From the IMG/VR virus record IMGVR_UViG_3300042756_000102: 43,199 nucleotides of DNA. One strand, given 5' to 3'. Source of the DNA: a virus. Each line of letters starts with the position of its first letter. Position 1 is the first letter of the stretch. The position numbers and the translations under genes are program-made. Shown here piece by piece: positions 1 to 22,494 of the stretch. Under the pieces are notes generated by a model. The model was not told the DNA's origin. It ran no database searches and worked only from the letters and a program-made list of their open reading frames with translations.

Positions 1-127
1 GAGCAGACCACCGATGCCTCCTACCCCAGACTTACTGGAAGTGCTGTTGCGTTCAAGAACCGCAAGGCTATCTTGTTTGATGTCGAGACCAAGATTAAGG
101 CTGACGGCACATTCTACACGCTCTTCC
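1..127. repeat. Terminal redundancy, copy 1. It is identical to 43073-43199 and is probably an assembly overlap of a circular or circularly permuted genome.
   Basis: Direct comparison: GAGCAGACCACCGATGCC...CACGCTCTTCC occurs at both window ends. It is 127 nt long and lies inside an open reading frame. Confidence 0.95.
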
Positions 128-6100: not shown

Positions 6101-6297
6101 TCATGCCAGCGGAGTTCACGGAGTTCAAGTCTGAGCAGTCTGCCACGGGTCGCATCATGCGTAACGCCAAGGGCTATGTTATCATGTTAGCCAACAATAA
6201 GTTTAGAGTCTATAATCCTTCCAAGGCTATCATCGGTGTCTACGGCAATGAGGAAGAAGCCAAAAAGAGAATCTACAAGGAAATCCCTAAGCGATGA
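1..6297 (+). CDS. C-terminal 2,098 aa of a giant wrap-around ORF (continues from 39836-43072; 3,177 aa in total). Putative ejected internal-virion polyvalent protein, in the position of T7 gp16.
   Basis: Frame 1 is open from base 1, so the TTG 'start' at 73 in the ORF track is an artefact. After removing the 127-nt overlap it is in phase with the ORF that opens at 39836. It is the last and largest of three consecutive internal-protein-like genes after the tail genes, and ends at TGA 6295-6297. Confidence 0.85.
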   Translation, partial: EQTTDASYPRLTGSAVAFKNRKAILFDVETKIKADGTFYTLFHTLDLAVIEQEANRLFQNTEYRKLFDGDRGVMEADFFKYLSNASKASTDPKKLDSAILLDKGDGLGAQRRDVLHQMGRMALQTGDAYKHQPIAVIPEGFRHSVTSFNIDGMTTPRVEGGARYDIDMKNAHKFIRENWQPDDMRQEKTPIGRVLTHDSGFKFTQDASGRVSAYTNDGSKVGTFSSIKEATTASKNLYNKAQENIRKIAQVAKQKEIENRKNLQPLDEAFYEEAFRVGDMFKTKRMQEIVGNSRLVRQTFDELLGQKVEEISSGKNEAEKGAILERMFNSEFKELIDLEAELQKEYEPLQLESRQLQEQEKEIIGRLAEFSQEKKRLQQFSDPDARVDVGILEMFERNYRRKEEVNKRVSEIVKKQHDAGITDYSSHYYMTKRFLQMFNETGKLSEEAIAFALKPSLIKAYEANFETGKAVTLLANHGTPNHELMVSKTFNTAFLGRNTGSMSAFNATFFAGSKETSLAFVGVPLEKTWVRDFIQARPHYVKDFSPELVAKLESMLSSDTSKGVVQKVKYLLNNAHIEFPDDFKLKDTHRKTKEGEPIIASRPESTLGYDIDGLLDRMLENAQDEGAVFGGVETYWEEAGREPYLLRNIVKMDNPYVHEYAKADYRDETFASVIQRAKDAGHDGVIFKNTKDGGGLDTIFASFAKNEDNKIFTLETTEDTRFAPRGNDEAGNKVKGGSEIEGRNFQPDEPMPPSRDQGFNRVYRQISRSKKAATRSIKQSYLDKWGIDLGDFEKYKQLTDSLDRLERDAEDGKDIPDFISERRDLKSEISDLEDFMTGRIQETQGEYAHQFTDQLDELEIGIRKIDSVISTISEQPLSKVGTWSGTNRLEAVLTRELGSGFAREISGDDIVIADSFREYALVKYEQDYLGAAFESELYSSDYIIPQKGNHHYTIPASEGSNKKGILVDVLRSENKLTEKGLPQGEVNPRRIINALKNKSGGDSKVYAEAKAMGLIDWLESKQDGQKQKKVTTKELIDFVENNKMGLVIDPQLVQSADFGDTRGYVSGGETQSRNGYRVFVVRMMNQKHQHGVEGHFNGAVVHIRVTTRKSKDGKKVFHIEEIQANNTATDVLSDSQRAVVTKEVEQLKLFKKDYEAALLYTQAESSALKSRFGAGTADYAIAETARVSRWQVNRDKIAGKYAEILYDLNPEPHQERYVGIGSKTRDGYISALAKSLPNMQIDMLVSEKTTKLNAKKNNAPLQDPKEWVKIAFRTVLRKAFVEGVDRITITPWSETPLQVGMKSKSAERFYGKTITDAFNSELAKMNSVLEAKNSSVSDRQRKITEANVKLNDSIQEVATAVDVNANNNGADIKVLFEYLHMSDADLDNRFGSQMNTYMSSPYEFLKWANFETEKLPPNYKGKDALEKAISRREEKLRLFVEDQGANEGLKTPSGRDVAAGSMSESEYLVDRSLGFDLTPEMKKKGARPQRMFQPSEGGAEGGRVYDQNSREFKTGFIGKYAEENPERLKNKNIEFVKRKDGSYRITLTDNFGTTKKIGHITADLDMSVKGEGVAEISSNIDPKFRGNKLANVLYSEMAERLRAMGVKYVDGTIVNKDGIPVQVRNTIIGQTYFKGSNKPASMQETASKVQAVQSVYPNKGIGVYNELDPKARYMPAEGVNAPVNEANRSFILDTITGNDNSRRALEEGMKQAKDRKQNFITIDNINPELLRGEAVVMHSPDNAGVEPVQIGRFTVNPRGGMRFPSENPTLGWAGVKAGLGKQINDNGNFNADRGKGWSSGVGLIKGDNAKMKGTHIGLEVFLRNLQNFTDNGVLTESQTKQILKKGLGDIGDIKRPLDTIVEDILVKSSKHEGRYTIDGRRKAVESMTKTDGHASLWKYLQSDLTKLEPLVEGFSSQGVTNANQFIKAMLEPMYEAVSDPLTRHAKVGEVYGYLMFRSPVTEPPSDVHPSYKYAVQSEDGGSPVQLDILSTPMSPRKAFTNRITAGEVSPLPESEAGFKVSTGQKHIPTMRGTFMPAEFTEFKSEQSATGRIMRNAKGYVIMLANNKFRVYNPSKAIIGVYGNEEEAKKRIYKEIPKR

Positions 6298-10183: not shown

Positions 10184-10960
10184 TTAGAACGGAACTTCGT
10201 CTTGAGTTACGGCTGGTGCTTCGATTTCACCGTTGGCGATAGCCCAGAGGCGTTCAGCCTCAGCCTTGACACGGAGGTCACGGGGACTGATTTCGGTGTT
10301 GTCACCAAAGGGCTTGGGCTTCCAGACATTAGCGAAGTAGTTGAGGTCTCCGAACTTGACGGTACGGTCAGCGGACTTCAACGGGAGTTGAGAGAGGGGA
10401 GTTCCCTTGAGGTCTCCAAAAGGAGCAACGGCTTCTCCTCCAGCAACAGGCTTGGCTGTGGGGTTAGGAATGAACTTTGTCCCAGAAGCAGTCGGCTTGC
10501 TGACAGGCGTGATGTATTCCTTCTTAGGAGCAGTCTTAACCACTCGGTCGGATTCCGCATCATCATCATCAGTTGCAACTCCAGCAATGGAAGCAAGGCT
10601 GTATCTACGCACATAAGAATACAGGCTACCCGCTTGCTGTCCAGACATACCCTTCTCAGCAGGGACGAGAGCGTTGCACGAAAGCATACCACCGTCTTCG
10701 TGGATGATAAGGTTACGGATACCAACGGCATCGATGTCACCGATTGGCATCTGGATGATAGCGAGTCCGTGCTTCTTGGCGAGGGGTTTAAGTGCGAGGA
10801 GGTGGGCTTGGAGGCTGGCATAGCGTGACTTGTGGAATGGATTGTTGCTGTCAGCGTGGACATCTTGGGCTTCAGACACGAAGGCTACTAGAGCCTTAGC
10901 GAGACTGACCTGTTGTTCGGGTGTGTTCATGTTAGGGGATGAGTGAGAGAAGAATTCCAT
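10184..10960 (-). CDS. erf: ERF-family single-strand annealing protein.
   Basis: The N-terminal region NNPFHKSRYASLQAHLLALKPLAKKHGLAIIQMP matches the ERF core pattern (K-x-x-YA-x-L ... HGL). The C-terminal tail is low-complexity and ends in an acidic tip, DEVPF. Confidence 0.85.
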   Translation of the reverse strand: MEFFSHSSPNMNTPEQQVSLAKALVAFVSEAQDVHADSNNPFHKSRYASLQAHLLALKPLAKKHGLAIIQMPIGDIDAVGIRNLIIHEDGGMLSCNALVPAEKGMSGQQAGSLYSYVRRYSLASIAGVATDDDDAESDRVVKTAPKKEYITPVSKPTASGTKFIPNPTAKPVAGGEAVAPFGDLKGTPLSQLPLKSADRTVKFGDLNYFANVWKPKPFGDNTEISPRDLRVKAEAERLWAIANGEIEAPAVTQDEVPF

Positions 10961-11627: not shown

Positions 11628-11672
11628 AGGAGGGTGATAGAAAGAAATGGTATTACTTGGTCAAGAAGAAAA

Positions 11673-12552: not shown

Positions 12553-13224
12553 TTAGAATGCTTCGTGGTCTCTGGCGGTCAAGACATTTGTATTACCTTT
12601 GCCAAATACTTGCTTGGGTTCAAAGAGACCCTGCCAGCCCTGCTTGATGGACTGCTCGATGCTGGCGATGGACTTGGCTTCACCCCACAGGACGAACTCC
12701 TTGAACTGAGCCTGTACGCTGGAGTCGGTGAGTTTCTTCTTCATCTCCTTGCGATAGGCTACCCAAGACTTCCAAGAAGCAATGAAAGCCTCAGAACCAA
12801 AGGGCAAACATACAATCCATCCGAGTTCTTTCCCTGTATCTTTATCTCCTTTATTATCTTCTTTGTTATATGTAGGCAATTTATTGCCACCCCCCGTGGC
12901 AATATTTTTCCTCCCCCCTAGGCAATTTACTTCCTCCCCAAGAGCCTTTACAACCGCAGTCTTCTCGACAGTTCGGATGACCCTGCGACCATCGACATCG
13001 ACACGGGTAATCAGATTAGCCTCATCGAGTTCCTGTAGGATGTTGCGGATTTGCCTCTCCCCTAGCCCAAGGTGGCGAGATAGGTAGGCGTTAGAGGCAA
13101 AGCACCCGTCATCGTTGTCAAGGGCTTCTACGACCCCGTAGACCACCTTAGCGGTGATGCTGACCTTGGTGGTCTGGAAGACCCCAGCAGGAATCCAGAC
13201 TCCCGTGAATTTAGGTTCGCTCAC
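12553..13224 (-). CDS. Replication initiator/organizer-like protein (winged HTH plus a DnaD-like C-terminus).
   Basis: The wHTH segment is SNAYLSRHLGLGERQIRNILQELDEANLITRV. The C-terminus is W/K-rich (WKSWVAYRKEMKKKL). The start is set at GTG 13224, which forms a GTGA overlap with the exonuclease stop; ATG 13281 is the alternative. Confidence 0.55.
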   Translation of the reverse strand: MSEPKFTGVWIPAGVFQTTKVSITAKVVYGVVEALDNDDGCFASNAYLSRHLGLGERQIRNILQELDEANLITRVDVDGRRVIRTVEKTAVVKALGEEVNCLGGRKNIATGGGNKLPTYNKEDNKGDKDTGKELGWIVCLPFGSEAFIASWKSWVAYRKEMKKKLTDSSVQAQFKEFVLWGEAKSIASIEQSIKQGWQGLFEPKQVFGKGNTNVLTARDHEAF

Positions 13225-14072
13225 AGGGATAGTTCGATGACCTCGTCCGAGTACGCCTTCCAGATTCCAGAGGAGGTACACGCACCGAACTCGATGACCA
13301 AGTCTTCCCAGCGTCCAGCGGACTTCAGCAGGGACTCAGCGGAAATAGAATAACAAGCCACGGCAAAGGGTGGCTTCTTCTCCACACAGATAAAATTAAA
13401 CTGATTTACAGGCTTGCCAGCGTTCTGGAGCAACCAGCCATATTGCACATCTTGGAAATCATAACGCCTGTCCCAGATTGCTCGCTTGAAGCCTTCGGGA
13501 CTAGCATCTTCACAGGTCTTGATGTCGTTTACGAAACCACGCTTGGAATCGTAAGCATCAATTAATCCCTTCAGACGCACATCGCCATAGGGCGTGGGGT
13601 AAGTGCCGAACACAGGCAACTCTTTGTAATCAGACTCAGCCAGCAGGACGCAAGCCTTGGGGTGGGCGATGACGCTGGAACGCATCGAGAACAGTTGGGC
13701 TTCCTGTTCCACATTGATAATGAACTTGCCAGCGTTCTCGATAGCGAACTGCTCATTGTAGGTCTTTCCCTCTTTAGACCGACCATCCACTTTGAGTTTA
13801 ACAGCGTAGAGTTCCTTAGCCTTGTCGGGCTGGAGCAAGAGAGCGTGGAAAACAGAACCCAGAATCATTGCGTCCGTGGGTTCGTGCTGTTCCTCCGTGG
13901 AGGCGAGGTAGTGGGCTGGAGACTTGTGGAAAATCTTCAGCGAGGACTGCGAGAGTCCGATTGCTTTGCGGTAGTCGGCTTCAGTCATTCCTGCACAGAA
14001 TGCAGGGTCAGAGCCTTGAGCGAGGTTGTGGTTCATCCCCGACACAGAATCAAATGGTAATACGCCTGTCAA
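13221..14072 (-). CDS. PD-(D/E)XK exonuclease (RecE/YqaJ/Cas4-like recombination nuclease).
   Basis: Core motif GLIDAYDSKRGFVNDIKTCED is followed by YDFQDVQY (D ... D-x-K ... Q-x-x-Y). It lies in the same operon as the ERF annealase. Confidence 0.8.
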   Translation of the reverse strand: MTGVLPFDSVSGMNHNLAQGSDPAFCAGMTEADYRKAIGLSQSSLKIFHKSPAHYLASTEEQHEPTDAMILGSVFHALLLQPDKAKELYAVKLKVDGRSKEGKTYNEQFAIENAGKFIINVEQEAQLFSMRSSVIAHPKACVLLAESDYKELPVFGTYPTPYGDVRLKGLIDAYDSKRGFVNDIKTCEDASPEGFKRAIWDRRYDFQDVQYGWLLQNAGKPVNQFNFICVEKKPPFAVACYSISAESLLKSAGRWEDLVIEFGACTSSGIWKAYSDEVIELSL

Positions 14073-14602: not shown

Positions 14603-15070
14603 ATGGATTACGAGTCAAGCCCAGAACGCCTTTCCACCAACCCTAGCCACAAGCGGACGGGCAAGCAACTGCCCAAGGAGACGCAGGAGAAGGTACAGGA
14701 GATGCTCAAGGACGGCTCTGGTGCTACGGAGATTAACCTAGCCACGGGGGTCAACCGTACAACCGTGATTGCGATGCGTCAGAACATGGAGTCCAATTCT
14801 GAGTTTCAGTTAGGCACTTGGAAAAAGCAAACTGCCTCCTTGATGTCACAAATCGTAAGCAGGGGTTCGACCCGTTTGTTAGAGGAAATTGAAAACATCC
14901 CCGCTGGTCAGTTGCCCCTAGCCATCGCCATTATGACCGACAAGGTGCTGGCTCTACAGGACGCTCCCACGGTCATCGTGGAGCATCGCCTACGGGTCAG
15001 CCACGAAGACATCAACTCGATGTTAAAGGGCGAGGTCATTGATTTGCCCCCTGCCAGAGAATCCCCTTGA
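14603..15070 (+). CDS. HTH protein on the opposite strand (155 aa from ATG 14603): a regulator or small-terminase-like protein.
   Basis: KQLPKETQEKVQEMLKDGSGATEINLATGVNRTTVIAMRQ is a clear HTH. The upstream 56 codons of the tracked ORF (14435 onward) cover the divergent promoter region and look non-coding. Confidence 0.6.
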   Translation: MDYESSPERLSTNPSHKRTGKQLPKETQEKVQEMLKDGSGATEINLATGVNRTTVIAMRQNMESNSEFQLGTWKKQTASLMSQIVSRGSTRLLEEIENIPAGQLPLAIAIMTDKVLALQDAPTVIVEHRLRVSHEDINSMLKGEVIDLPPARESP

Positions 15071-15105
15071 CAAAGTAATACTGCTTTGTTTATTGGGTAT
15101 TCTGT

Positions 15106-17595: not shown

Positions 17596-17740
17596 TTTAG
17601 GGAAAGTAGACTAAGAAAGAGCGAGCGAGGTCTGTCACACCCTGCACCTATGAATGAATAGACTTTTTACAGAAGAGCAACGCCTTTTATCAAGACCCTA
17701 TACGCAGTAGCATTGCTAATACCATATATAAGTTTCTCTC

Positions 17741-17775
17741 AGATTATAATATTATAATAGAATTATAAAAGAGAC
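17741..17775. repeat. AT-rich tandem ATTATAAT/ATTATAAA triplet.
   Basis: GATTATAATATTATAATAGAATTATAAAAG: multiple TATAAT-like hexamers, which could be a DNA-unwinding or promoter element. Confidence 0.6.
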
Positions 17776-17816
17776 GCTCGGATTCCTGTTTTGAATTCCC
17801 GAATCCTGTTAACCTA

Positions 17817-17826
17817 ACCTATGATT
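17817..17826. repeat. Inverted copy of the AATCATAGGT 10-mer.
   Basis: ACCTATGATT is the reverse complement of the 10-mer repeated at 18118, 18150 and 18190. Confidence 0.7.
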
Positions 17827-17875
17827 CCGTAATTAGAAAACAGGTAGCAGGCAGCGTGCCAAGTCCCTATACATA

Positions 17876-17902
17876 ATTGTAAATAAAGTGTAAAAATGTA
17901 AA
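17876..17902 (-). promoter_or_regulatory. Cluster of TTTACA boxes (the minus strand reads TTTACATT-TTTACAC-N5-TTTACAAT).
   Basis: The plus strand reads ATTGTAAATAAAGTGTAAAAATGTAAA. Confidence 0.45.
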
Positions 17903-17914
17903 GAGCCTCTACAA

Positions 17915-17949
17915 TCGATTCTAAGGGGGGTATGGCAAGACCCTATACC
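17915..17949 (+). repeat. 35-bp direct repeat, copy A.
   Basis: TCGATTCTAAGGGGGGTATGGCAAGACCCTATACC, against copy B at 18277-18311: 32 of 35 identical, with the first 20 nt exact. It has internal dyad symmetry, GGTAT...ATACC. Confidence 0.85.
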
Positions 17950-18000
17950 TTCCCCTAGGCTGACCCTTGCAAGAGCCTTGTAGGGCAACTGTGCAAGAAG

Positions 18001-18017
18001 TTGTAAAGCGTTGTAAA
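18001..18017 (-). promoter_or_regulatory. Tandem TTTACAA boxes.
   Basis: The plus strand reads TTGTAAAGCGTTGTAAA (10-nt period). Confidence 0.4.
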
Positions 18018-18117
18018 TCAACGACTTACAGAGGTAGGTGAACAGATGTTCAATCAAGCACAAAACAGGGGGTCAGATACTGGTATAAGCAATCCTAATG
18101 ACCCGTGTAGAATCTCT

Positions 18118-18199
18118 AATCATAGGTCTGTCAAGGGGTATTCGGGTCGAATCATAGGTCGCTCGCCTCGGATTCAAATCCAATCTTGTAATCATAGGT
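18118..18199 (+). repeat. Three direct copies of the 10-mer AATCATAGGT (iteron-like).
   Basis: Exact copies at 18118-18127, 18150-18159 and 18190-18199. Confidence 0.8.
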
Positions 18200-18234
18200 A
18201 AGGATATAATGTATCAACCATATACCAATCATAT

Positions 18235-18253
18235 AATGTAAAACAATTGTAAA
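18235..18253 (-). promoter_or_regulatory. Bipartite TTTACAAT-N3-TTTACATT motif.
   Basis: The minus strand reads TTTACAATTGTTTTACATT. Confidence 0.5.
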
Positions 18254-18276
18254 AATGCGATTAGACCCCTCTGGCT

Positions 18277-18311
18277 TCGATTCTAAGGGGGGTATGTAAA
18301 GAGCCTATACC
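18277..18311 (+). repeat. 35-bp direct repeat, copy B.
   Basis: TCGATTCTAAGGGGGGTATGTAAAGAGCCTATACC. Confidence 0.85.
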
Positions 18312-18823
18312 GTAGCATGGACTTTCGTGGATTCGGGCATATGCCTATAAATGTGCAAAGAATCTTGGCACGCTCTCTGCTATGCGTGGGCGTGCGTTCA
18401 CTCCCAAGGCGAAGGGTCGCTGGATAAAATGCAGATTCCCGAAAATAGTTCTTGAATCAGTAATACGCTGGTCTACCTTCTAGGTCTGTTCTTCGTCACT
18501 CGGTTCTCTCCTCCCGCCCTGCGGGATGGTCGCACCAGATGCTGGCAACTCGCCAGCCAGCCAGATGCGTAAAGATTCGATACAGAACTCGGTTCATTGA
18601 AATTCTACTGTAGGAAGCCCCAGCCCCAGAAGGGCATCGGCATTAATTCCTAAACGACAATCCAGCGTGTGCTAGGCTGATATATTCCCCGCACGATGGC
18701 AGACATTCAGAAACCTAGAAACCTACGGGTCAGAGATTCTAGATTCGTGAATCAACAAAAGGACGAAACACGGGGGTAGGTGAAAATCCCACCCCCTTGT
18801 CTAGTGGTTATACCACTACTGAC

Positions 18824-18843
18824 GAGTCCGCAGTTACGGACTC
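18824..18843 (+). promoter_or_regulatory. Hairpin with a CAGTTA loop at the 5' side of the rightward CA-rich leader.
   Basis: GAGTCCG-CAGTTA-CGGACTC (7-bp stem). Two further hairpins precede it: GGGGGT...ACCCCC at about 18772-18796 and TAGTGG-TTATA-CCACTA at 18801-18817. Confidence 0.6.
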
Positions 18844-18881
18844 AAAACCCAAAACCAAAATACCAAATACCAAAACCGCAT

Positions 18882-19748
18882 ATGAAAAATCAAACCGCAG
18901 AAATCACGGAGGGCAAGGTGACGAACAATCCCTTCTACCTCGTCACGCAGGAACGCCTCCACCTCCCCGATGGTACGCCCACCCCGTTCTACGGCAATGT
19001 CCGCAAGGACACGGGTGTGTGCCTCAAGGCTGTCACGGAACGCTACACCATCGTGCAGAACCAAGACCTCATCGAGAAGGCTGAATCCATCTTCGACACG
19101 AAGGGGATGAAGTTCACTCGCAATTGCGAAATCACGCAGGACGGCTCTCGGATGTACGCCAACTACACCTTCGCCAATCACGGCTTCAAGGTGCAGAAGG
19201 ATGACTTCCAGATGCGTGTCTCGCTTCGTAATTCGTTCGACGGCTCGATGAAAATCTCGCTGGTCGTGGGATTGATGCGGGTCGTGTGCAGTAACGGAGC
19301 GTGGTCGATGGATGGCGGTATCGACTTGATGCGTAAGCATACTGCTTCCGTGGATGTCGAGTTCGCCTCCAACGCAGTCGATGTCGCTTGCCGTAGTTTC
19401 CAGTCGCAGTACGAAACGCTCGACCTGTTCAGTCGCACGAAACTCAATCAGCAGGAAGGTCACGAACTGCTGAACGGGCTGGTGAAGCGTAGCGTTCTCG
19501 CTGACCGTGTCGCTGACAAGGTTCGTGAAATCTGGGAGAAGCCGACCTACGAGGAAGACCGCACTCGCAATGTGTACAACCTCTGGAACGCCATCACCCA
19601 GCACACCACGCACGACATCGCTGGTGAACGCAGGAAGGTGGAACTCGCCACCCGCCTGTCCACCAACGCCACGATGACGCTGGCTGACTTCGCCCGCAAG
19701 GGACGCATCAGCGACCTGTTCGTCAAGGAACTCCAGAAGAACAACTAA
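18882..19748 (+). CDS. DUF932-family protein (288 aa from ATG 18882).
   Basis: MRVSLRNSFDGSMKISLVVGLMRVVCSNGA matches the DUF932 core (N-S-x-D-G-S ... G-x-x-R-x-V-C-x-N-G). The upstream 34 codons of the tracked ORF cover the hairpins and the CA-rich leader. Confidence 0.8.
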   Translation: MKNQTAEITEGKVTNNPFYLVTQERLHLPDGTPTPFYGNVRKDTGVCLKAVTERYTIVQNQDLIEKAESIFDTKGMKFTRNCEITQDGSRMYANYTFANHGFKVQKDDFQMRVSLRNSFDGSMKISLVVGLMRVVCSNGAWSMDGGIDLMRKHTASVDVEFASNAVDVACRSFQSQYETLDLFSRTKLNQQEGHELLNGLVKRSVLADRVADKVREIWEKPTYEEDRTRNVYNLWNAITQHTTHDIAGERRKVELATRLSTNATMTLADFARKGRISDLFVKELQKNN

Positions 19749-19767
19749 ACCAACCGACAACGGGGAA

Positions 19768-19785
19768 GGGCAGACAACTCTGCCC
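19768..19785 (+). other. Hairpin after the DUF932 stop, with no T-run.
   Basis: GGGCAGA-CAAC-TCTGCCC. Confidence 0.5.
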
Positions 19786-19800
19786 GACCCCAGCGTCACC

Positions 19801-19816
19801 AAATCCTAACTACAAA
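19801..19816 (+). promoter_or_regulatory. Gene-junction motif, copy 1 (AAATCCTAACTACAAA).
   Basis: Ends 4 nt before ATG 19821. Confidence 0.7.
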
Positions 19817-19820
19817 TCCT

Positions 19821-20519
19821 ATGAAACCTGCTATCGTTATTCAGTTCACCCTCCACAACGGAGACAAAGTCTCCAGCACCTTCGCAGACCACACGGCACT
19901 CGTCCAGCGTGTCGCTGAACTCAAGGAGGCTCTCGCCAACACGCCCAGCACCTACACGGGGACTATCACCCTGAACCAAGGTCACGAACTCCGTGCCTTG
20001 GAAGAATTCAGAGCGTTGCCGTCCAATGCTGGCGAGGTCATCGACCTGTGCGTCCAGCACGGGTATCCCATCGTGAAGATTGCGGACGCTGACTTCTACG
20101 GACTCCCGATGGAAGCCAAGTTCGCCAAGACCCAAGCCTACATCGATTTGATTAAGGCAGAGGTCGCTGAAAAGAAGGCTGTAGAACTTCAGAAGAAATT
20201 GGACGCACAGTTCACGATTGATGAGTTCACCACCAAGTTCGCCCGTGATGTCTTCGCTGGCAACGCTCGCTGGGTTAATGTCTACGAGACCAGCGAGTGC
20301 TACGGAGGTTCTGAAGAGGGTGGATGGAACTACACCTGCTACACGCTGGTGGCTTGCTTCCCCCTCTCGCTGTTCCAGCACTACACGCCCGTGTCCCTTG
20401 CTGATATCACCAAGGGTGCTACCGACCTTGTGGAGAAGATGGGTCTGGAATCCGACCTCATCCTGCTGGAAGACCTCCCAGCCAAGTCTGTGACCCTCAC
20501 CCGCCCCCACTACGAGTAA
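19821..20519 (+). CDS. Hypothetical protein (232 aa) with a YGGSEEGGW motif.
   Basis: The plus-strand translation is protein-like and is preceded by the junction motif. The antisense ORF 19806-20510 is rejected. Confidence 0.7.
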   Translation: MKPAIVIQFTLHNGDKVSSTFADHTALVQRVAELKEALANTPSTYTGTITLNQGHELRALEEFRALPSNAGEVIDLCVQHGYPIVKIADADFYGLPMEAKFAKTQAYIDLIKAEVAEKKAVELQKKLDAQFTIDEFTTKFARDVFAGNARWVNVYETSECYGGSEEGGWNYTCYTLVACFPLSLFQHYTPVSLADITKGATDLVEKMGLESDLILLEDLPAKSVTLTRPHYE

Positions 20520-20522
20520 TCC

Positions 20523-20546
20523 CCGTATCTAAATCCTAACTACAAA
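20523..20546 (+). promoter_or_regulatory. Gene-junction motif, copy 2 (CCGTATCTAAATCCTAACTACAAA).
   Basis: An exact 24-mer shared with 21074-21097. Ends 5 nt before ATG 20552. Confidence 0.75.
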
Positions 20547-20551
20547 ATAAT

Positions 20552-20890
20552 ATGCATACGCTCATCAACGAGTCCTATCAGTCCATCAAGACCGCTCTGC
20601 ACTTCGCCCTCAAGGGCGAGGAGATTCTCTATCTCCTGTGCGAAGAGAAATACGATGCTCTGAAGGATGTAAAATCCCAATCAGAAGAAGTCACGCTCCT
20701 GCTGGAGCAATGGAGACTCCAGAAAGTAATCTGCGAGCGTCTGGCAAAGACCTTGCACGATATGAATCCGTGGTACACGAACGAAGCCTTCCATCCTGCC
20801 ACGATGGATGGACAGGGAATCGGATTCCTCAAACGAGTCCCAGAACGACAGGCGAACGGGACGAACATCCTGCCTGTGCGTAAAGACTAA
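20552..20890 (+). CDS. Hypothetical protein (112 aa).
   Basis: ORF preceded by the junction motif. Confidence 0.6.
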   Translation: MHTLINESYQSIKTALHFALKGEEILYLLCEEKYDALKDVKSQSEEVTLLLEQWRLQKVICERLAKTLHDMNPWYTNEAFHPATMDGQGIGFLKRVPERQANGTNILPVRKD

Positions 20891-20897
20891 CTACAAA
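20887..20897 (+). promoter_or_regulatory. Gene-junction motif, copy 3 (short form, CTAACTACAAA).
   Basis: Overlaps the stop of the previous gene. Ends 1 nt before ATG 20899. Confidence 0.55.
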
Positions 20898-20898
20898 A

Positions 20899-21090
20899 AT
20901 GAGATTCCAAATCTACGCTCACCGAATCAGCGACAACGAGTCCAAGCAACTCTGGTACGACATCAGCCTTCGACTCTGGCAGGGCTGGGTCATCGACAAC
21001 GAAGGTAACCAGATTGGTAACTCAGAATACTTCCCGTCATCCCGCAAGGCTCACGCCTTCGGGTGGCTGGAGTCCGTATCTAAATCCTAA
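20899..21090 (+). CDS. Hypothetical protein (63 aa).
   Basis: ORF preceded by the junction motif. Its last codons are themselves part of motif copy 4. Confidence 0.55.
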   Translation: MRFQIYAHRISDNESKQLWYDISLRLWQGWVIDNEGNQIGNSEYFPSSRKAHAFGWLESVSKS

Positions 21091-21097
21091 CTACAAA
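21074..21097 (+). promoter_or_regulatory. Gene-junction motif, copy 4 (CCGTATCTAAATCCTAACTACAAA).
   Basis: Exact 24-mer. Ends 6 nt before ATG 21104. Confidence 0.75.
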
Positions 21098-21103
21098 TAT
21101 CCT

Positions 21104-21196
21104 ATGCACCAAATCCTAGTCGCTGTTGCTCTGCTCTGCGTTGCTGTCGCTGGTCTCGCCTGTGTGGTCGGCTTCCTAGCCTTCTGCACACGCTGA
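21104..21196 (+). CDS. 30-aa hydrophobic peptide (MHQILVAVALLCVAVAGLACVVGFLAFCTR).
   Basis: The start is chosen by the junction motif. It has a single transmembrane-like helix. The tracked 60-aa ORF (from 21014) overlaps the previous gene. Confidence 0.45.
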   Translation: MHQILVAVALLCVAVAGLACVVGFLAFCTR

Positions 21197-21225
21197 CCAC
21201 CCCGTGTAGCGTCCTTGCCCCCTCA

Positions 21226-21268
21226 AGCCCACCCTGTGCCTAACCAGCCTTGGTGGGCTTTCTTGTTT
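21226..21268 (+). terminator. Intrinsic terminator ending the 18882-21196 module.
   Basis: AGCCCACC (21226-21233) pairs with GGTGGGCT (21252-21259), followed by TTCTTGTTT. Confidence 0.6.
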
Positions 21269-21431
21269 AGTGATTAGCCCGCCTCCACGCCCCTCTGAGC
21301 CTGTATTAATCCTTTGCCTATACCCTAGCCTACCCCAGCCCATCAAAGGGCTTCCTAGGGCATCCCAGACCCCTTCCCCGACTACTGAACACCCGTTCAC
21401 CTACCTGTTCCAGCCAATCCAATCCCCTGCT

Positions 21432-21452
21432 TTTACAATCCTTTTACATTTG
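21432..21452 (+). promoter_or_regulatory. Bipartite TTTACAAT-N3-TTTACATTTG motif oriented rightward (toward the tRNAs and late genes).
   Basis: TTTACAATCCTTTTACATTTG. Its 3' half, TACATTTG, fits the Bacteroidota -7 consensus TAnnTTTG. Confidence 0.5.
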
Positions 21453-21532
21453 TGAATCAATTGTTAATTTCTTTTACTTCGGATGGGTAACCACCTACAG
21501 GCTACATTCTATAAGAAGGCTTATATAATATT

Positions 21533-21595
21533 CTTTTAGGTTTATATAATAATCTTTTTACCTTTTATAATAAAGTCTTTTAGGTTTATAATAAT
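21533..21595 (+). repeat. AT-rich direct repeat CTTTTAGGTTTATA(TA)ATAAT, two copies.
   Basis: Copies at 21533-21553 and 21577-21595, differing by a TA indel, embedded in TATAAT-rich sequence. Confidence 0.75.
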
Positions 21596-21824
21596 CCCCT
21601 TCCCCTACGGGGGGGCGGGGGTCTTTATCTTTTCGCTAGACTCCTATTTATACCCATCCAGACAGATACTTTTTTTATACTAAAAAGCATCACTAAGACT
21701 TGAAGCGACTACTGGTAGGAGCGTCAGGGGGTTATTAGGGGGTTTCAAAGGTCTTCAGTCAAGGAGCAACTTGTGAACGATACTGTTTACCTACGAAGAG
21801 TTAGTGCTTGACACAAGGATAAGT

Positions 21825-21946: not shown

Positions 21947-22018
21947 GCCTTGTTAGCACAGCGGTAGTGCGTCTGTTTTGTAAACAGAAGGTCGTTGGTT
22001 CAATCCCAACACAAGGCT
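21947..22018 (+). tRNA. trnT: tRNA-Thr (anticodon TGT).
   Basis: Hand-folded cloverleaf: acceptor GCCTTGT/ACAAGGC, D stem GCAC/GTGC, anticodon stem TCTGT/ACAGA with loop TTTGTAA, T arm GTTGG-TTCAATC-CCAAC. Confidence 0.9.
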
Positions 22019-22136
22019 TTCTTTGAGTGCAGTCTGGTCACAGGCTGAGTATAATAAGTTGATAGGTTCATCACATGGCTCACAGCGTAAACTAATGGCA
22101 ACGATATTTATACTGGTCAACCCCACTCTCCCTTTA

Positions 22137-22208
22137 CAACCCGTAGTTCAACGGATAGAACCCCTGCCTTCTAAGCAGGTTATCTAGGTTCGATTCCTAG
22201 CGGGTTGA
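22137..22208 (+). tRNA. trnR: tRNA-Arg (anticodon TCT).
   Basis: Acceptor CAACCCG/CGGGTTG, D stem GTTC/GAAC, anticodon stem CCTGC/GCAGG with loop CTTCTAA, T arm CTAGG-TTCGATT-CCTAG. Confidence 0.9.
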
Positions 22209-22213
22209 TTCAC

Positions 22214-22284
22214 AGACTTATGGTGTAATGGTAGCACAGGAGTTTTTGGTTCTCCTTGTCGGGGTTCAAATCCCTGTAAGTCTA
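22214..22284 (+). tRNA. trnQ: tRNA-Gln (anticodon TTG).
   Basis: Acceptor AGACTTA/TAAGTCT, D stem GTGT/GCAC, anticodon stem GGAGT/TCTCC (one T-T mismatch at the loop-closing pair) with loop TTTTGGT, T arm CGGGG-TTCAAAT-CCCTG. Confidence 0.75.
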
Positions 22285-22290
22285 TTTACA

Positions 22291-22371
22291 GTAAGAGTGG
22301 TGGAACGGTATACACGACTGACTTAAAATCAGTTGCCATACGGCTTGCGGGTTCAAGTCCCGCCTCTTGCA
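22291..22371 (+). tRNA. trnL: tRNA-Leu (anticodon TAA), with a long variable arm.
   Basis: Acceptor GTAAGAG/CTCTTGC (one G-T pair), anticodon stem ACTGA/TCAGT with loop CTTAAAA, variable arm GCC-ATAC-GGC, T arm GCGGG-TTCAAGT-CCCGC. Confidence 0.85.
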
Positions 22372-22378
22372 CATTCAC

Positions 22379-22451
22379 GGGGGTGTAACTCAGCGGTTAG
22401 AGTGGACTCTTTATAAGGGTTAAGCCGAGGGTTCGACTCCCTCCACCCCTA
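22379..22451 (+). tRNA. trnI: tRNA-Ile (anticodon TAT, reads ATA).
   Basis: Acceptor GGGGGTG/CACCCCT, D stem ACTC/GAGT, anticodon stem GACTC/GGGTT (two G-T pairs) with loop TTTATAA, T arm GAGGG-TTCGACT-CCCTC. Confidence 0.8.
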
Positions 22452-22494
22452 CCTTTACAGTTGACAGTATTTATTATTCGTAGATAAACAGCAC

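What the first reader, a model, noticed from the sequence alone, without database searches (positions are those of the whole stretch)
18882..21196. High-GC rightward module headed by DUF932 has an identical junction motif before every gene
A spot count at 18961-19020 gives about 63% GC, against about 47-55% elsewhere. Codon bias is strong enough to leave long antisense ORFs open.

The module encodes:
- a DUF932 protein;
- a 232-aa protein with a YGGSEEGGW motif;
- 112-aa and 63-aa proteins;
- a 30-aa hydrophobic peptide.

Every gene after DUF932 is preceded by AAATCCTAACTACAAA (19801), its exact 24-nt extended form CCGTATCTAAATCCTAACTACAAA (20523 and 21074), or the short form CTAACTACAAA (20887). 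Each copy ends 1-6 nt before the ATG. The module is bracketed by the repeat-rich region on the left and a terminator (21226-21268) on the right.

DUF932 genes are typical of the first-entering regions of conjugative elements and phages, near anti-restriction functions. This looks like a horizontally acquired immediate-early takeover or anti-defence cassette with a dedicated translation, processing or recombination signal.
Basis: partly seen in the sequence, partly recalled or inferred. Interest (0 to 1): 0.65.

Follow-up and report, generated by a model that had tools for sequence, protein, structure and literature searches.

The report
Shared junction motif in phage gene array
An uncultivated phage keeps one invariant 16-base, G-free sequence just before the start codon of every small gene in a swappable accessory-gene array, apparently serving as both a Shine-Dalgarno-free ribosome landing site and the seam at which related phages exchange genes.

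Summary
Window 18882-21196 is a rightward operon: DUF932, then proteins of 232, 112, 63 and 30 aa, then a terminator. Each gene after DUF932 is preceded by AAATCCTAACTACAAA (one variant), ending 1-6 nt before the ATG. GC is raised only modestly, 54% against 47%.

Thirteen related phage contigs are 66-92% identical in DNA. They keep the 16-mer almost unchanged at 34 of 39 junctions, but the genes between DUF932 and the terminal membrane peptide differ in number, identity and order. Homology breaks fall on the motif. Its internal TAA is often the upstream gene's stop.

The motif is G-free, predicted unpaired, always in the sense orientation, and confined to this operon. The phage has no Shine-Dalgarno sites and encodes Erf-like and exonuclease proteins.

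Best reading: a portable stop/start junction, acting as a translation initiation site and a recombination seam. It resembles start-associated sequences of Cluster K mycobacteriophages and PeSLs of T4-type phages, but differs from both. A sister lineage uses a different junction and an ArdC-like head gene.

A type II hammerhead ribozyme lies upstream of DUF932, supported by covariation but missed by Rfam. An anti-defence role is plausible but unproven.

The parts
18452..18466 (+). Promoter-like element TTGAATCAGTAATAC, candidate start region of the rightward module transcript (inferred)
   Evidence: Exact TTGACnnnGTAATAC copies lie 23-25 nt upstream of two other gene starts (11650-11664 minus strand, 15067-15081 plus strand). 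The 18452 copy is conserved at the same place in L002, L004, L015, L049 and L326. No sigma-70 consensus match was found here.
18761..18829 (+). Type II hammerhead ribozyme candidate. Stem II is open (GGAC 18761-18764 with GUCC 18826-18829); GAAA core; stem III hairpin 18769-18799; GUC 18799-18801 with predicted cleavage after C18801; stem I hairpin 18802-18818; CUGACGA 18819-18825.
   Evidence: In alignment A1 of 10 distinct relatives, the core nucleotides are invariant, stems I and II are 100% paired, and 6 pairs carry compensatory changes. Covariance model R1 finds exactly one copy per related genome at 76-97 bits. There was no Rfam match, even at E<=10.
18839..18881 (+). CA-rich, G-poor leader of DUF932 (CAAAACCCAAAACCAAAAUACCAAAUACCAAAACCGCAU-AUG)
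   Evidence: Sequence. Relatives carry similar (CAAAA)n leaders.
18882..19748 (+). DUF932 / TIGR03299-like protein, 288 aa; head gene of the module
   Evidence: Pfam PF06067 E=2.5e-21, 77 bits against a cutoff of 23. TIGR03299 E=3.7e-15. Relatives carry two alleles only about 40% identical in protein between conserved flanks.
19762..19791 (+). Conserved hairpin without a U-tract, between DUF932 and the first junction
   Evidence: Minimum free energy -25.4 kcal/mol, z=-5.6. Compensatory CAG/CTG to CTG/CAG changes appear in relatives. The 77-nt spacer 19740-19816 is 97% identical to L049 even though the DUF932 alleles differ.
19793..19816 (+). Junction 1: GCGTCACC + core AAATCCTAACTACAAA, 4 nt before the ATG
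19821..20519 (+). Cassette G, 232 aa. The C-terminal YGGxEEGGW...RPxYE domain belongs to a family of small stand-alone proteins; function unknown.
   Evidence: no Pfam, PDB or fold match
20523..20546 (+). Junction 2: CCGTATCT + core, 5 nt before the ATG
20552..20890 (+). Cassette E, 112 aa, function unknown. Its stop is the TAA inside junction 3.
   Evidence: Homologues sit in other positions in L057, L025 and L004.
20882..20897 (+). Junction 3: variant core AAAGACTAACTACAAA, 1 nt before the ATG
   Evidence: The two changes fall in the last codons of E: RKD* here, RKS* in L057.
20899..21090 (+). Cassette K, 63 aa, function unknown. Its C-terminal SVSKS* is encoded by junction 4.
21074..21097 (+). 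Junction 4: CCGTATCT + core, 6 nt before the ATG
21104..21196 (+). Terminal 30-aa hydrophobic peptide. Its first codons, ATGCACCAAATCCTA, are a partial copy of the junction.
   Evidence: Always the last gene of the array in relatives, in two forms (30 aa, or 24-25 aa).
21225..21268 (+). Intrinsic terminator ending the module
   Evidence: conserved in relatives
10184..10960 (-). Erf-like single-strand annealing protein; candidate enzyme for recombination at the short repeats (inferred)
   Evidence: PHROG 2324 E=1.9e-28
13221..14072 (-). Exonuclease VIII-like protein, partner of the annealing protein (inferred)
   Evidence: PHROG 412 E=2e-56

Best explanation
The 16-mer AAATCCTAACTACAAA, with a looser 5' extension CGT(A/C)(A/T)C(C/T) and often ATCCT before the ATG, is the conserved core of a portable stop/start junction. 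It sits inside one polycistronic accessory-gene operon.

**On the RNA.** It is a G-free, unstructured ribosome loading or re-initiation site that needs no Shine-Dalgarno sequence. It lies 1-6 nt before each ATG. Its TAA codons, in two frames, terminate whatever ORF comes from upstream.

**On the DNA.** The identical copies are the seams at which homologous recombination inserts, deletes and swaps small genes among co-infecting relatives. The phage's own Erf-like/exonuclease pair probably does this. Any cassette joined there keeps a working stop for its upstream neighbour and a working start for itself.

**The operon.** It is probably transcribed from the control region on its left. A type II hammerhead ribozyme likely trims its 5' end, and the terminator at 21225-21268 closes it.

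**What is shown and what is inferred.**
- Shown: the repeat, its placement and orientation, its conservation, the variable gene content, breakpoints at the motif, use of its stop codon, and covariation in the ribozyme.
- Inferred: translation function, recombination mechanism, ribozyme activity, early timing, and any anti-defence role.
For: **Placement**
- There are 4 of 4 copies in the window and 34 of 39 junctions in 13 non-redundant related contigs. All are on the coding strand, 1-6 nt upstream of an ATG.
- No copy lies elsewhere in the window except a minus-strand 11-mer inside the giant ORF.
- In three other near-complete genomes (contigs of 43.2, 42.8 and 40.6 kb), all exact copies fall in one locus.

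**Conservation**
- Only 8 deviations occur in 544 core positions, although the contigs are 66-92% identical to the window.
- This holds in L001-L004, which were found through the DUF932 protein and not through the motif.

**Shuffling**
- About 12 cassette families occur in 13 different arrays. The same family appears behind different neighbours.
- Homology blocks end at the motif. Examples: window versus L001 ends at 19816 and resumes at 21082; cassette E versus L057 spans 20517-20897, motif to motif.
- 24% of block ends lie within 10 nt of a motif, against 5% for random positions.
- Scars are visible: a chimeric MHQILV N-terminus on an E homologue in L004, a tandem CCTAACTACA duplication in L269, and an A1-A2 gene fusion in L008.

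**Stop function**
- The TAA inside the core is the upstream stop in 11 junctions. Unrelated families end in ...KS* encoded by AAATCCTAA.

**Fit with a translation initiation site**
- The motif RNA is predicted 0.88-0.98 unpaired, against 0.43 for the rest of the mRNA.
- The whole phage lacks Shine-Dalgarno sites: SD-like tetramers occur in 5 of 30 leaders, and G is 13% in leaders against 24% in the genome. The module is the extreme, at 3% G.

**Recombination enzymes**
- Erf-like and exonuclease VIII-like genes are present.

**Sister lineage**
- L331 and L333 have the same kind of array with a different repeated element before each gene. Repeated junctions are therefore a property of this locus.
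Against: - No experiment or transcript data exist, so translation function rests on position and predicted accessibility. Any G-free sequence would be predicted unpaired, so accessibility does not explain why the exact sequence is invariant.
- The host is unknown. Pairing with host rRNA, or use of the motif by host genes, could not be tested.
- Many related loci were found by searching for the exact 16-mer. This inflates apparent conservation for at least one copy per locus.
- Breakpoints at a conserved block are partly expected for any conserved island between unrelated genes, so they do not prove that the motif causes recombination.
- Five junctions work without the motif (L004, L008, L025 twice, L326).
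Confidence: 0.6

Rival explanations
1. The motif is a phage-specific promoter, or a DNA operator, placed before each gene. Each cassette would then be its own transcription unit with a leaderless or near-leaderless mRNA, recognised by a phage-encoded or modified RNA polymerase or by a repressor, as with stoperators.
For: - Invariant asymmetric motifs of 16-24 bp before genes are typical of single-subunit RNA polymerase promoters and of repressor sites.
- The sister lineage's junction contains an invariant TTGACA, so there each small gene seems to have its own promoter.
- The first junction follows a conserved hairpin, which recalls a terminator-promoter pair.
- The 2074-aa ORF has no identified function.
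Against: - No sigma-70-like hexamers lie in or around the motif.
- The motif is confined to one 1.3-kb operon. A phage promoter or stoperator would be expected genome-wide.
- No hairpins or terminators separate the other cassettes.
- Gaps between a stop and the next ATG are 8-33 nt, and the stop lies inside the motif. This fits a polycistronic message.
- No RNA polymerase domain was detected anywhere.
Confidence: 0.15
2. The motif is an RNA recognition site for a nuclease or translational repressor. A phage or host factor would cut or silence all accessory messages at once at the switch to late development, as RegB and RegA do in T4.
For: - Exact sequence invariance goes beyond what an unstructured leader needs.
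- The motif is single-stranded and accessible.
- It sits on every cistron of one operon only.
- The operon already uses RNA processing, through the hammerhead.
Against: - No candidate factor was identified.
- No complementary RNA is encoded in the window.
- This reading is compatible with, rather than exclusive of, a translation-initiation role.
Confidence: 0.12
3. The repeat has no expression role. It is only a recombination scar or a hitch-hiking mini-element: an integron-attC-like or site-specific recombination site, or microhomology left by repeated gene insertion.
For: - Arrays vary, with breakpoints at the repeat.
- There is a duplication scar in L269 and partial copies inside ORFs.
Against: - Strict orientation and a 1-6 nt distance to the ATG in 34 junctions.
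- Near-invariance across lineages that are 66-92% identical elsewhere argues for selection on the sequence itself.
- The motif has no inverted repeat and no folding potential, as an attC site would need.
- No integrase was found among the window proteins scanned, which included the genes flanking the module.
Confidence: 0.08

Closest known systems
Start-associated sequences (SAS/ESAS) of Cluster K mycobacteriophages (PMC3203893)
   Same: - A short asymmetric repeat, present in one orientation.
- It lies a few bases upstream of start codons, mostly ATG.
- It is limited to the non-structural part of the genome.
- It is attached to genes of different families.
- The upstream stop codon sometimes lies inside it.
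- It is rare outside the phage group, and its function is unproven but thought to be translational.
   Different: - The SAS consensus GGGATAGGAGCCC contains a Shine-Dalgarno core. The motif here is G-free and has none.
- SAS copies are scattered over half the genome (11-19 copies). This motif is confined to one operon.
- Half of SAS copies carry a 17-bp inverted-repeat extension. None is present here.
- SAS were not described as recombination boundaries of a variable array.
PeSL (promoter-early stem-loop) cassettes of T4-type phages (PMC2839356, PMC4122927)
   Same: Short conserved intergenic sequences between small, variable, mostly unknown early genes in hyperplastic regions. They serve as points of exchange between otherwise unrelated sequences.
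   Different: - A PeSL is a composite of a terminator stem-loop and an early sigma-70 promoter.
- The motif here has neither and abuts the start codon inside a polycistronic unit.
- The sister lineage's junction, with TTGACA, is closer to a PeSL.
Type II hammerhead ribozymes in bacteria and phages (PMC3088659)
   Same: - CUGANGA, GAAA and GUC cores, with stems I and III capped and stem II open.
- Located in phage DNA upstream of a gene block.
- The paper notes hammerheads flanking prophage genes and lying directly upstream of ardA in Legionella.
   Different: - No match to any Rfam hammerhead model, even at E<=10.
- No obvious pseudoknot between loop I and the 3' tail.
- Instead, the 3' tail can pair with the CUGAYG core, and this pairing covaries.
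- Activity is untested.
Stoperators of Cluster A mycobacteriophages (own knowledge; contrasted with SAS in PMC3203893)
   Same: Many copies of a 13-bp asymmetric site in short intergenic gaps, in one orientation relative to transcription.
   Different: - Stoperators are repressor-binding DNA sites spread over both genome arms and are not tied to start codons.
- No repressor was identified here, and the copies are limited to one operon.
Integron gene-cassette arrays (own knowledge)
   Same: A variable string of promoterless small genes, expressed from one end and separated by a recurring site.
   Different: - attC sites are imperfect inverted repeats that fold, and they are recombined by an adjacent integrase.
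- This motif is 16-24 nt, has no fold, and no integrase was found among the window proteins scanned.
G-free, CAA-rich, S1-dependent translational enhancers such as the TMV omega leader (own knowledge)
   Same: G-free, A/C-rich, unstructured leader that promotes initiation without a Shine-Dalgarno sequence.
   Different: Omega works through composition and repeats. Here a specific 16-mer is invariant, which suggests additional sequence-specific recognition.

Membership tests
Start-associated sequences (Cluster K mycobacteriophages) | Short asymmetric repeat 3-7 bp upstream of start codons, in one orientation | tested here: met
   34 junctions, all in the sense orientation, 1-6 nt before an ATG
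Start-associated sequences (Cluster K mycobacteriophages) | Attached to genes of different families and limited to non-structural genes | tested here: met
   About 12 cassette families; copies occur only in the accessory operon
Start-associated sequences (Cluster K mycobacteriophages) | Consensus GGGATAGGAGCCC containing the Shine-Dalgarno core AGGAG | tested here: not met
   The core AAATCCTAACTACAAA has no G and no Shine-Dalgarno sequence
Start-associated sequences (Cluster K mycobacteriophages) | Absent or very rare in the host genome | tested here: inconclusive
   The host is unknown. ATG-adjacent use in unrelated DNA is at about chance level.
PeSL (T4-type phages) | Lies between small variable ORFs of a hyperplastic region and marks indel and replacement boundaries | tested here: met
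PeSL (T4-type phages) | Composite of a stem-loop terminator and a sigma-70 early promoter | tested here: not met
   No promoter-like hexamers. The motif region is unstructured (z=-0.07 for 21060-21125).
Integron attC cassette array | Imperfect inverted repeat that folds, plus an adjacent tyrosine integrase | tested here: not met
   No inverted repeat at the junctions. No integrase among the proteins scanned.
Hammerhead ribozyme, type II | Conserved core CUGANGA ... GAAA ... NUH at a three-way junction | tested here: met
   Invariant CUGA(Y)GA, GAAA and GUC in 10 distinct sequences
Hammerhead ribozyme, type II | Stems I and III closed by loops, stem II open, and the stems supported by covariation | tested here: met
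   Stems I and II are 100% paired, with 6 pairs changed on both sides. 0 of 500 shuffles reached the covariation score, and slid controls gave 18-37% paired. The stem III register varies between sequences.
Hammerhead ribozyme, type II | Pseudoknot between loop I and the 3' tail (present in most, not all, type II examples) | tested here: not met
   None was seen by inspection of A1. Instead the tail pairs with the core.
Hammerhead ribozyme, type II | Match to the curated Rfam hammerhead models | tested here: not met
   No hit at the gathering score, nor at E<=10
Hammerhead ribozyme, type II | Self-cleavage after the NUH triplet | not testable with these tools
   Needs in vitro transcription or mapping of 5'-OH and 2',3'-cyclic phosphate ends. 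The predicted site is C18801/U18802.
DUF932 (PF06067) / TIGR03299 | Profile match above the curated threshold | tested here: met
   Pfam 77 bits against a cutoff of 23. TIGR03299 E=3.7e-15 but below its subfamily cutoff.
Anti-defence (anti-restriction) gene set | Homology to a characterised anti-defence protein, or a demonstrated activity | tested here: inconclusive
   None of the window's cassettes matches anything. An ArdC-like gene occupies the head position in sister lineage L331/L333. A single weak LPD16 hit (E=0.007, 1 of 38 members) was not reproducible.

The most novel reading that the evidence does not exclude
The invariant 16-mer is not just an open leader. It would be a sequence-specific 'private ribosome-binding site', read by a trans-acting partner: a non-Shine-Dalgarno contact with the host 30S subunit or protein S1, or a phage-encoded RNA-binding regulator.

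Together with the hammerhead-trimmed 5' end, it would form a dedicated expression platform. Any gene recombined into the array would then be translated and regulated as a block. The sister lineage's different junction would reflect co-evolution with a different partner.
Probability: 0.25. Interest if true: 0.8.

Novelty: new variant of a known kind. Interest (0 to 1): 0.6.

Why it matters
- **Translation without Shine-Dalgarno.** How ribosomes pick start sites in bacteria that do not use Shine-Dalgarno pairing is still open. A natural 16-nt element that phages keep unchanged in front of interchangeable genes is a ready-made probe for that question, and a candidate portable start signal for engineering such hosts.
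- **Phage accessory arrays.** It gives a clear case of how phages build and reshuffle accessory (possibly anti-defence) gene arrays. One short sequence acts as stop, start and recombination seam, so any swap stays functional.
- **Ribozyme detection.** The hammerhead found next to it is missed by current Rfam models. It also adds a second example of ribozyme processing just upstream of genes linked to anti-restriction.

Tried and rejected
- **Rfam** on the whole window and, at E<=10, on 17600-21600: only tRNAs were found, and no hammerhead. The ribozyme was found by eye and tested by covariation instead.
- **Exact 24-mer in viral contigs:** no hit.
- **14-mer of the sister-lineage junction in viral contigs:** chance hits only.
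- **blastn of the module against GenBank phages:** no match. The nearest terminase is Phage C75C1 at 33% identity, with no host given.
- **Function of the 232-aa protein:** Pfam, PHROG, NCBIfam and PDB sequence and profile searches gave nothing. The AlphaFold model was poor (pLDDT 61) and the Foldseek search of the PDB was empty. A weak LPD16 hit for one homologue did not hold for the family.
- **Search for an RNA complementary to the motif in the window:** only the antisense of the copies themselves, plus an 11-mer at 3235 with no extension.
- **Sigma-70 promoter scan:** nothing at the junctions.
- **Host identification** from sample names or papers failed.
- **Pairing of the extended motif with the 16S rRNA 790 loop:** considered and set aside. 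The GTATCT part is the variable part of the junction, and an 8-nt match to some rRNA loop is expected by chance.


Full report
**Setting.** The window looks like a complete tailed-phage genome of about 43 kb. Related IMG/VR contigs are 43.2, 42.8 and 40.6 kb.
- A giant 2074-aa ORF is at 73-6297.
- Leftward replication and recombination genes lie between about 7.7 and 17.6 kb. They include a replication initiator, a DnaC-like loader, an Erf-like annealing protein and an exonuclease VIII-like protein.
- A 1.2-kb non-coding, repeat-rich control region spans 17.6-18.9 kb.
- The module under study spans 18.9-21.3 kb.
- Five tRNA genes lie at 21947-22453, followed by the packaging and structural genes.
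- No GenBank phage resembles it in DNA.

**Check of the observation.**
- The core CTAACTACAAA occurs four times on the + strand, at 19806, 20536, 20887 and 21087. Otherwise it occurs only once, on the minus strand at 3235. With one mismatch allowed there are 6 matches against 0.85 expected.
- The 24-mer at 20523 and 21074 is identical.
- The copies end 4, 5, 1 and 6 nt before the ATGs at 19821, 20552, 20899 and 21104.
- The ORFs are as listed, and the long antisense ORFs are there.
- DUF932 is confirmed (Pfam E=2.5e-21; TIGR03299 E=3.7e-15).
- The terminator is a 9-bp stem followed by UUCUUGUUU.

The composition claim needs tempering. The quoted 63% is a local peak. The module is 54.4% GC against 46.6% for the rest, which still makes it the richest stretch of its size. 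Third-position GC is 0.65-0.76. This is the top of a gradient that runs from tail genes (0.38) through replication genes (about 0.57) to the genes on either side of the control region (0.66). That pattern fits expression-linked codon choice at least as well as foreign origin.

**Related phages.**
- Searching IMG/VR with the DUF932 protein gave four loci at 91-96% protein identity.
- Searching with the 16-mer, then filtering by similarity to the window, gave more. In total there are 13 non-redundant related contigs, 66-92% identical to the window in DNA.
- In all of them the same 16-mer sits before the genes that follow DUF932.
- Across 34 junctions only 8 of 544 core positions differ. The seven bases before the core are a looser CGT(A/C)(A/T)C(C/T).
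- Part of this conservation is ascertainment, because many loci were found through one exact copy. It also holds in L001-L004, which were found through the protein, and in the additional copies of the motif-seeded loci.
- Five junctions lack the motif.

**A variable array with fixed seams.** Between DUF932 and a terminal small membrane peptide the gene content differs in almost every contig:

| Contig(s) | Array after DUF932 |
|---|---|
| window | G-E-K-D |
| L326 | G-D |
| L001 | A1-A2-D |
| L002 | L-A1-H-D |
| L004 | G'-H-T-E'-D |
| L015 | A1-C |
| L025 | M-E-C |
| L028 | H-A2-C |
| L033 | P-C |
| L049 | Q-R-A2-C |
| L057 | S-E-C |
| L269 | A2-D |
| L008, L047, L087, L275 | A1/A2 fusion-C |

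- The same family appears behind different neighbours and at different ranks.
- Pairwise homology blocks stop and restart at the motif. Window versus L001 ends at 19816 and resumes at 21082. Cassette E aligns with L057 from 20517 to 20897, which is from one motif to the next. Window versus L326 ends at 20523.
- Overall, 24% of block ends lie within 10 nt of a motif against 5% of random positions. The ends are not independent, so only the enrichment is meaningful.
- DUF932 itself exists as two alleles only about 40% identical in protein. They are swapped between a conserved upstream ribozyme and a conserved 77-nt downstream spacer that is 97% identical between window and L049.
- Recombination scars are visible. 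The terminal peptide gene starts with ATGCACCAAATCCTA, a partial junction copy. In L004 this same start is fused to an E homologue. L269 has a tandem CCTAACTACA duplication. L008 carries an A1-A2 fusion.

**The junction is also a stop.**
- The TAA inside the core (CCTAAC) is the stop codon of the upstream ORF in 11 junctions. In most others a TAA 11-14 nt upstream of the core, or at -1 (TCTAAATCC), is used (the script may mis-assign a few).
- Unrelated families therefore share a C-terminal ...KS encoded by AAATCCTAA: K ends in SVSKS, H in PVSKS, M in VFKS, Q in SMKS, S in KLKS and E in VRKS.
- The one variant copy in the window, AAAGACTAACTACAAA, differs exactly in the last codons of E: RKD here and RKS in L057.
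- Distances from a stop to the next ATG are 8-33 nt, which fits a polycistronic message with coupled or re-initiating translation. This last point is an inference.

**Evidence for a role in initiation.**
- The phage does not use Shine-Dalgarno sites. Only 5 of 30 ATG-start genes have an SD-like tetramer in the 20 nt upstream. These leaders are G-poor (13% against 24% in the genome) and A-rich. The module leaders are the extreme, with 3% G and 49% A.
- In partition-function folding of the operon mRNA, the motif copies are 0.88-0.98 unpaired against 0.43 for the rest. The same holds in four relatives.
- All copies are in the sense orientation, tightly placed before an ATG, and confined to this operon.
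- These features fit an accessible Shine-Dalgarno-independent loading site. They do not explain why the exact sequence is invariant, since any G-free stretch would be open. I take the invariance as a sign of selection on the sequence: a specific partner, the recombination function, or both.
- No RNA complementary to the motif is encoded in the window.
- No sigma-70-like promoter lies at the junctions.

**Recombination.** The phage encodes an Erf-like single-strand annealing protein and an exonuclease VIII-like protein. From general knowledge, such pairs recombine short and imperfect homologies efficiently. Repeats of 16-40 nt would be suitable substrates. This step is inferred.

**A sister lineage.**
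- Homologues of the 232-aa protein at 60-68% identity lie in contigs L331-L333 at the same locus, upstream of the same 132-aa and 535-aa packaging genes.
- There the head gene is ArdC-like (ArdcN plus MPTase-PolyVal domains) instead of DUF932.
- Each small gene is preceded by a different conserved element of about 45 nt: TTGACA, a spacer, then CTGATTCATTACCTAYCTCCYACCACGCAT-ATG.
- Repeated junctions are thus a property of this locus, and the sequence is lineage-specific. The TTGACA suggests one promoter per gene there, which is closer to the PeSL design.

**Hammerhead ribozyme.** Directly upstream of DUF932, at 18761-18829, the sequence reads GGAC-GAAAC-[hairpin]-GUC-[hairpin]-CUGACGA-GUCC.
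- Ten distinct relatives keep CUGA(Y)GA, GAAA and GUC invariant, while the two hairpins and the open stem change by compensatory substitutions.
- RNAalifold recovers stems I and II.
- Counting pairs gives 100% pairing in stems I and II and 6 pairs changed on both sides. No shuffle out of 500 reached the covariation score, and slid controls gave 18-37% paired.
- A covariance model finds exactly one copy per related genome at 76-97 bits. It finds none in the sister lineage or in phage C75C1.
- This is the type II architecture of Perreault et al. (PMC3088659). That paper also reports hammerheads flanking prophage genes and lying immediately upstream of ardA.
- Rfam finds nothing here, even at E<=10.
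- I see no pseudoknot between loop I and the tail. Instead, the tail (CAUCAG or GUCAG) can pair with the CUGAUG or CUGAC core, and this pairing covaries. It may be an alternative fold of the cleaved mRNA.
- Activity is untested. The predicted cut is after C18801. It would leave the mRNA starting with a hairpin and a 5'-OH, followed by a CA-rich leader.
- A promoter-like element, TTGAATCAGTAATAC, lies at 18452. It is conserved in relatives and repeated exactly before two other genes, so it may start the transcript.
- A conserved hairpin without a U-tract follows DUF932.

**Function of the genes.**
- The four downstream proteins have no informative matches.
- The C-terminal YGGxEEGGW...RPxYE domain of the 232-aa protein defines a small family of mostly stand-alone proteins, with 51 cluster representatives at E<=0.001. 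It has no Pfam or PDB relative.
- The structure model was poor and its fold search was empty.
- An anti-defence role is supported only by association: DUF932, ArdC at the same position in the sister lineage, and the ardA precedent for ribozymes.
- No housekeeping function was found.

**Verdict.**
There is a dedicated junction signal in a cassette-like module. 'Acquired' is better described as continually reshuffled within a conserved frame. 'Anti-defence' remains a reasonable guess.
- The closest known things are the start-associated sequences of Cluster K mycobacteriophages and the PeSLs of T4-type phages. This element shares the placement of the former and the shuffling role of the latter. 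It fails a defining feature of each: it has no Shine-Dalgarno core, and it has no promoter or stem-loop.
- I rate it a new variant of a known kind, of moderate to high interest.

Noticed in passing
window 18761-18829 (+): Type II hammerhead ribozyme candidate just upstream of DUF932. The core is invariant, and stems I and II covary across 10 relatives. There is one copy per related genome. Rfam does not detect it.
   Followed up: yes
window 18819-18838 and alignment A1 columns 70-88: The sequence after the hammerhead (CAUCAG or GUCAG) can pair with the CUGAUG or CUGAC core, and it covaries with core position 7. This may be an alternative fold, either an off state or a protective hairpin on the cleaved mRNA. 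In the window a GAGUCC/GGACUC hairpin takes this place.
   Followed up: partly
L331 2700-7000; L333 2500-5520: A sister lineage has an ArdC-like head gene instead of DUF932. Before each small gene it carries a different repeated element of about 45 nt: TTGACA...CTGATTCATTACCTAYCTCCYACCACGCAT-ATG.
   Followed up: partly
window 11650-11664 (-), 15067-15081 (+), 18452-18466 (+): Repeated element TTGAC(N3)GTAATAC, 23-25 nt upstream of two gene starts, with a near copy upstream of the module. The copies are conserved in relatives. It may be a non-canonical promoter.
   Followed up: partly
window 19762-19791 (+): Strong conserved hairpin without a U-tract between DUF932 and the first junction (z=-5.6), with compensatory changes in relatives. 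The surrounding 77-nt spacer is more conserved than the DUF932 gene itself.
   Followed up: partly
window 17878-18311: Two copies, 362 nt apart, of a composite repeat (TGTAAA..TGTAAAAATG..AAGAGCCTMTAC..CGATTCTAAGGGGGGTATG) in the 1.2-kb non-coding control region. An inverted partner, TTTTACAATCCTTTTACA, lies at 21431-21450. They could be origin or regulator binding sites.
   Followed up: no
window 21521-21590; L002 3440-3600; L004 8500-8670: Tandem TATAAT-rich units of about 22 nt between the module terminator and the tRNA genes. They contain the only strong sigma-70-like promoter match in the region (21564-21592).
   Followed up: no
window 73-6297 (+): A 2074-aa ORF with low GC3 (0.38) and no Pfam or PHROG match. 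The distant relative Phage C75C1 also has a giant ORF spanning its record origin.
   Followed up: partly
window 21947-22453 (+): Cluster of five tRNA genes (Thr-TGT, Arg-TCT, Gln-TTG, Leu-TAA, Ile-TAT) directly after the module. All of them read A- or U-ending codons, whereas the module itself is rich in C-ending codons.
   Followed up: no
window 3235-3245 (-): Single reverse-strand copy of the 11-mer core inside the giant ORF. The complementarity does not extend further, so it is probably chance.
   Followed up: yes
L097, L099, L108, L173, L260, L325 (Prochlorococcus genomes and a metagenome): The same 16-mer directly abuts the ATG of a conserved 32-aa hydrophobic peptide (MLALLIILLINLSLFF...) in several Prochlorococcus genomes. 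This is a single locus and probably coincidence, but it also precedes a tiny membrane peptide.
   Followed up: no
window 20235-20516; P0011-P0060: The YGGxEEGGW...RPxYE domain forms a family of small proteins (80-200 aa, one of 1077 aa) that is not in Pfam or the PDB.
   Followed up: partly
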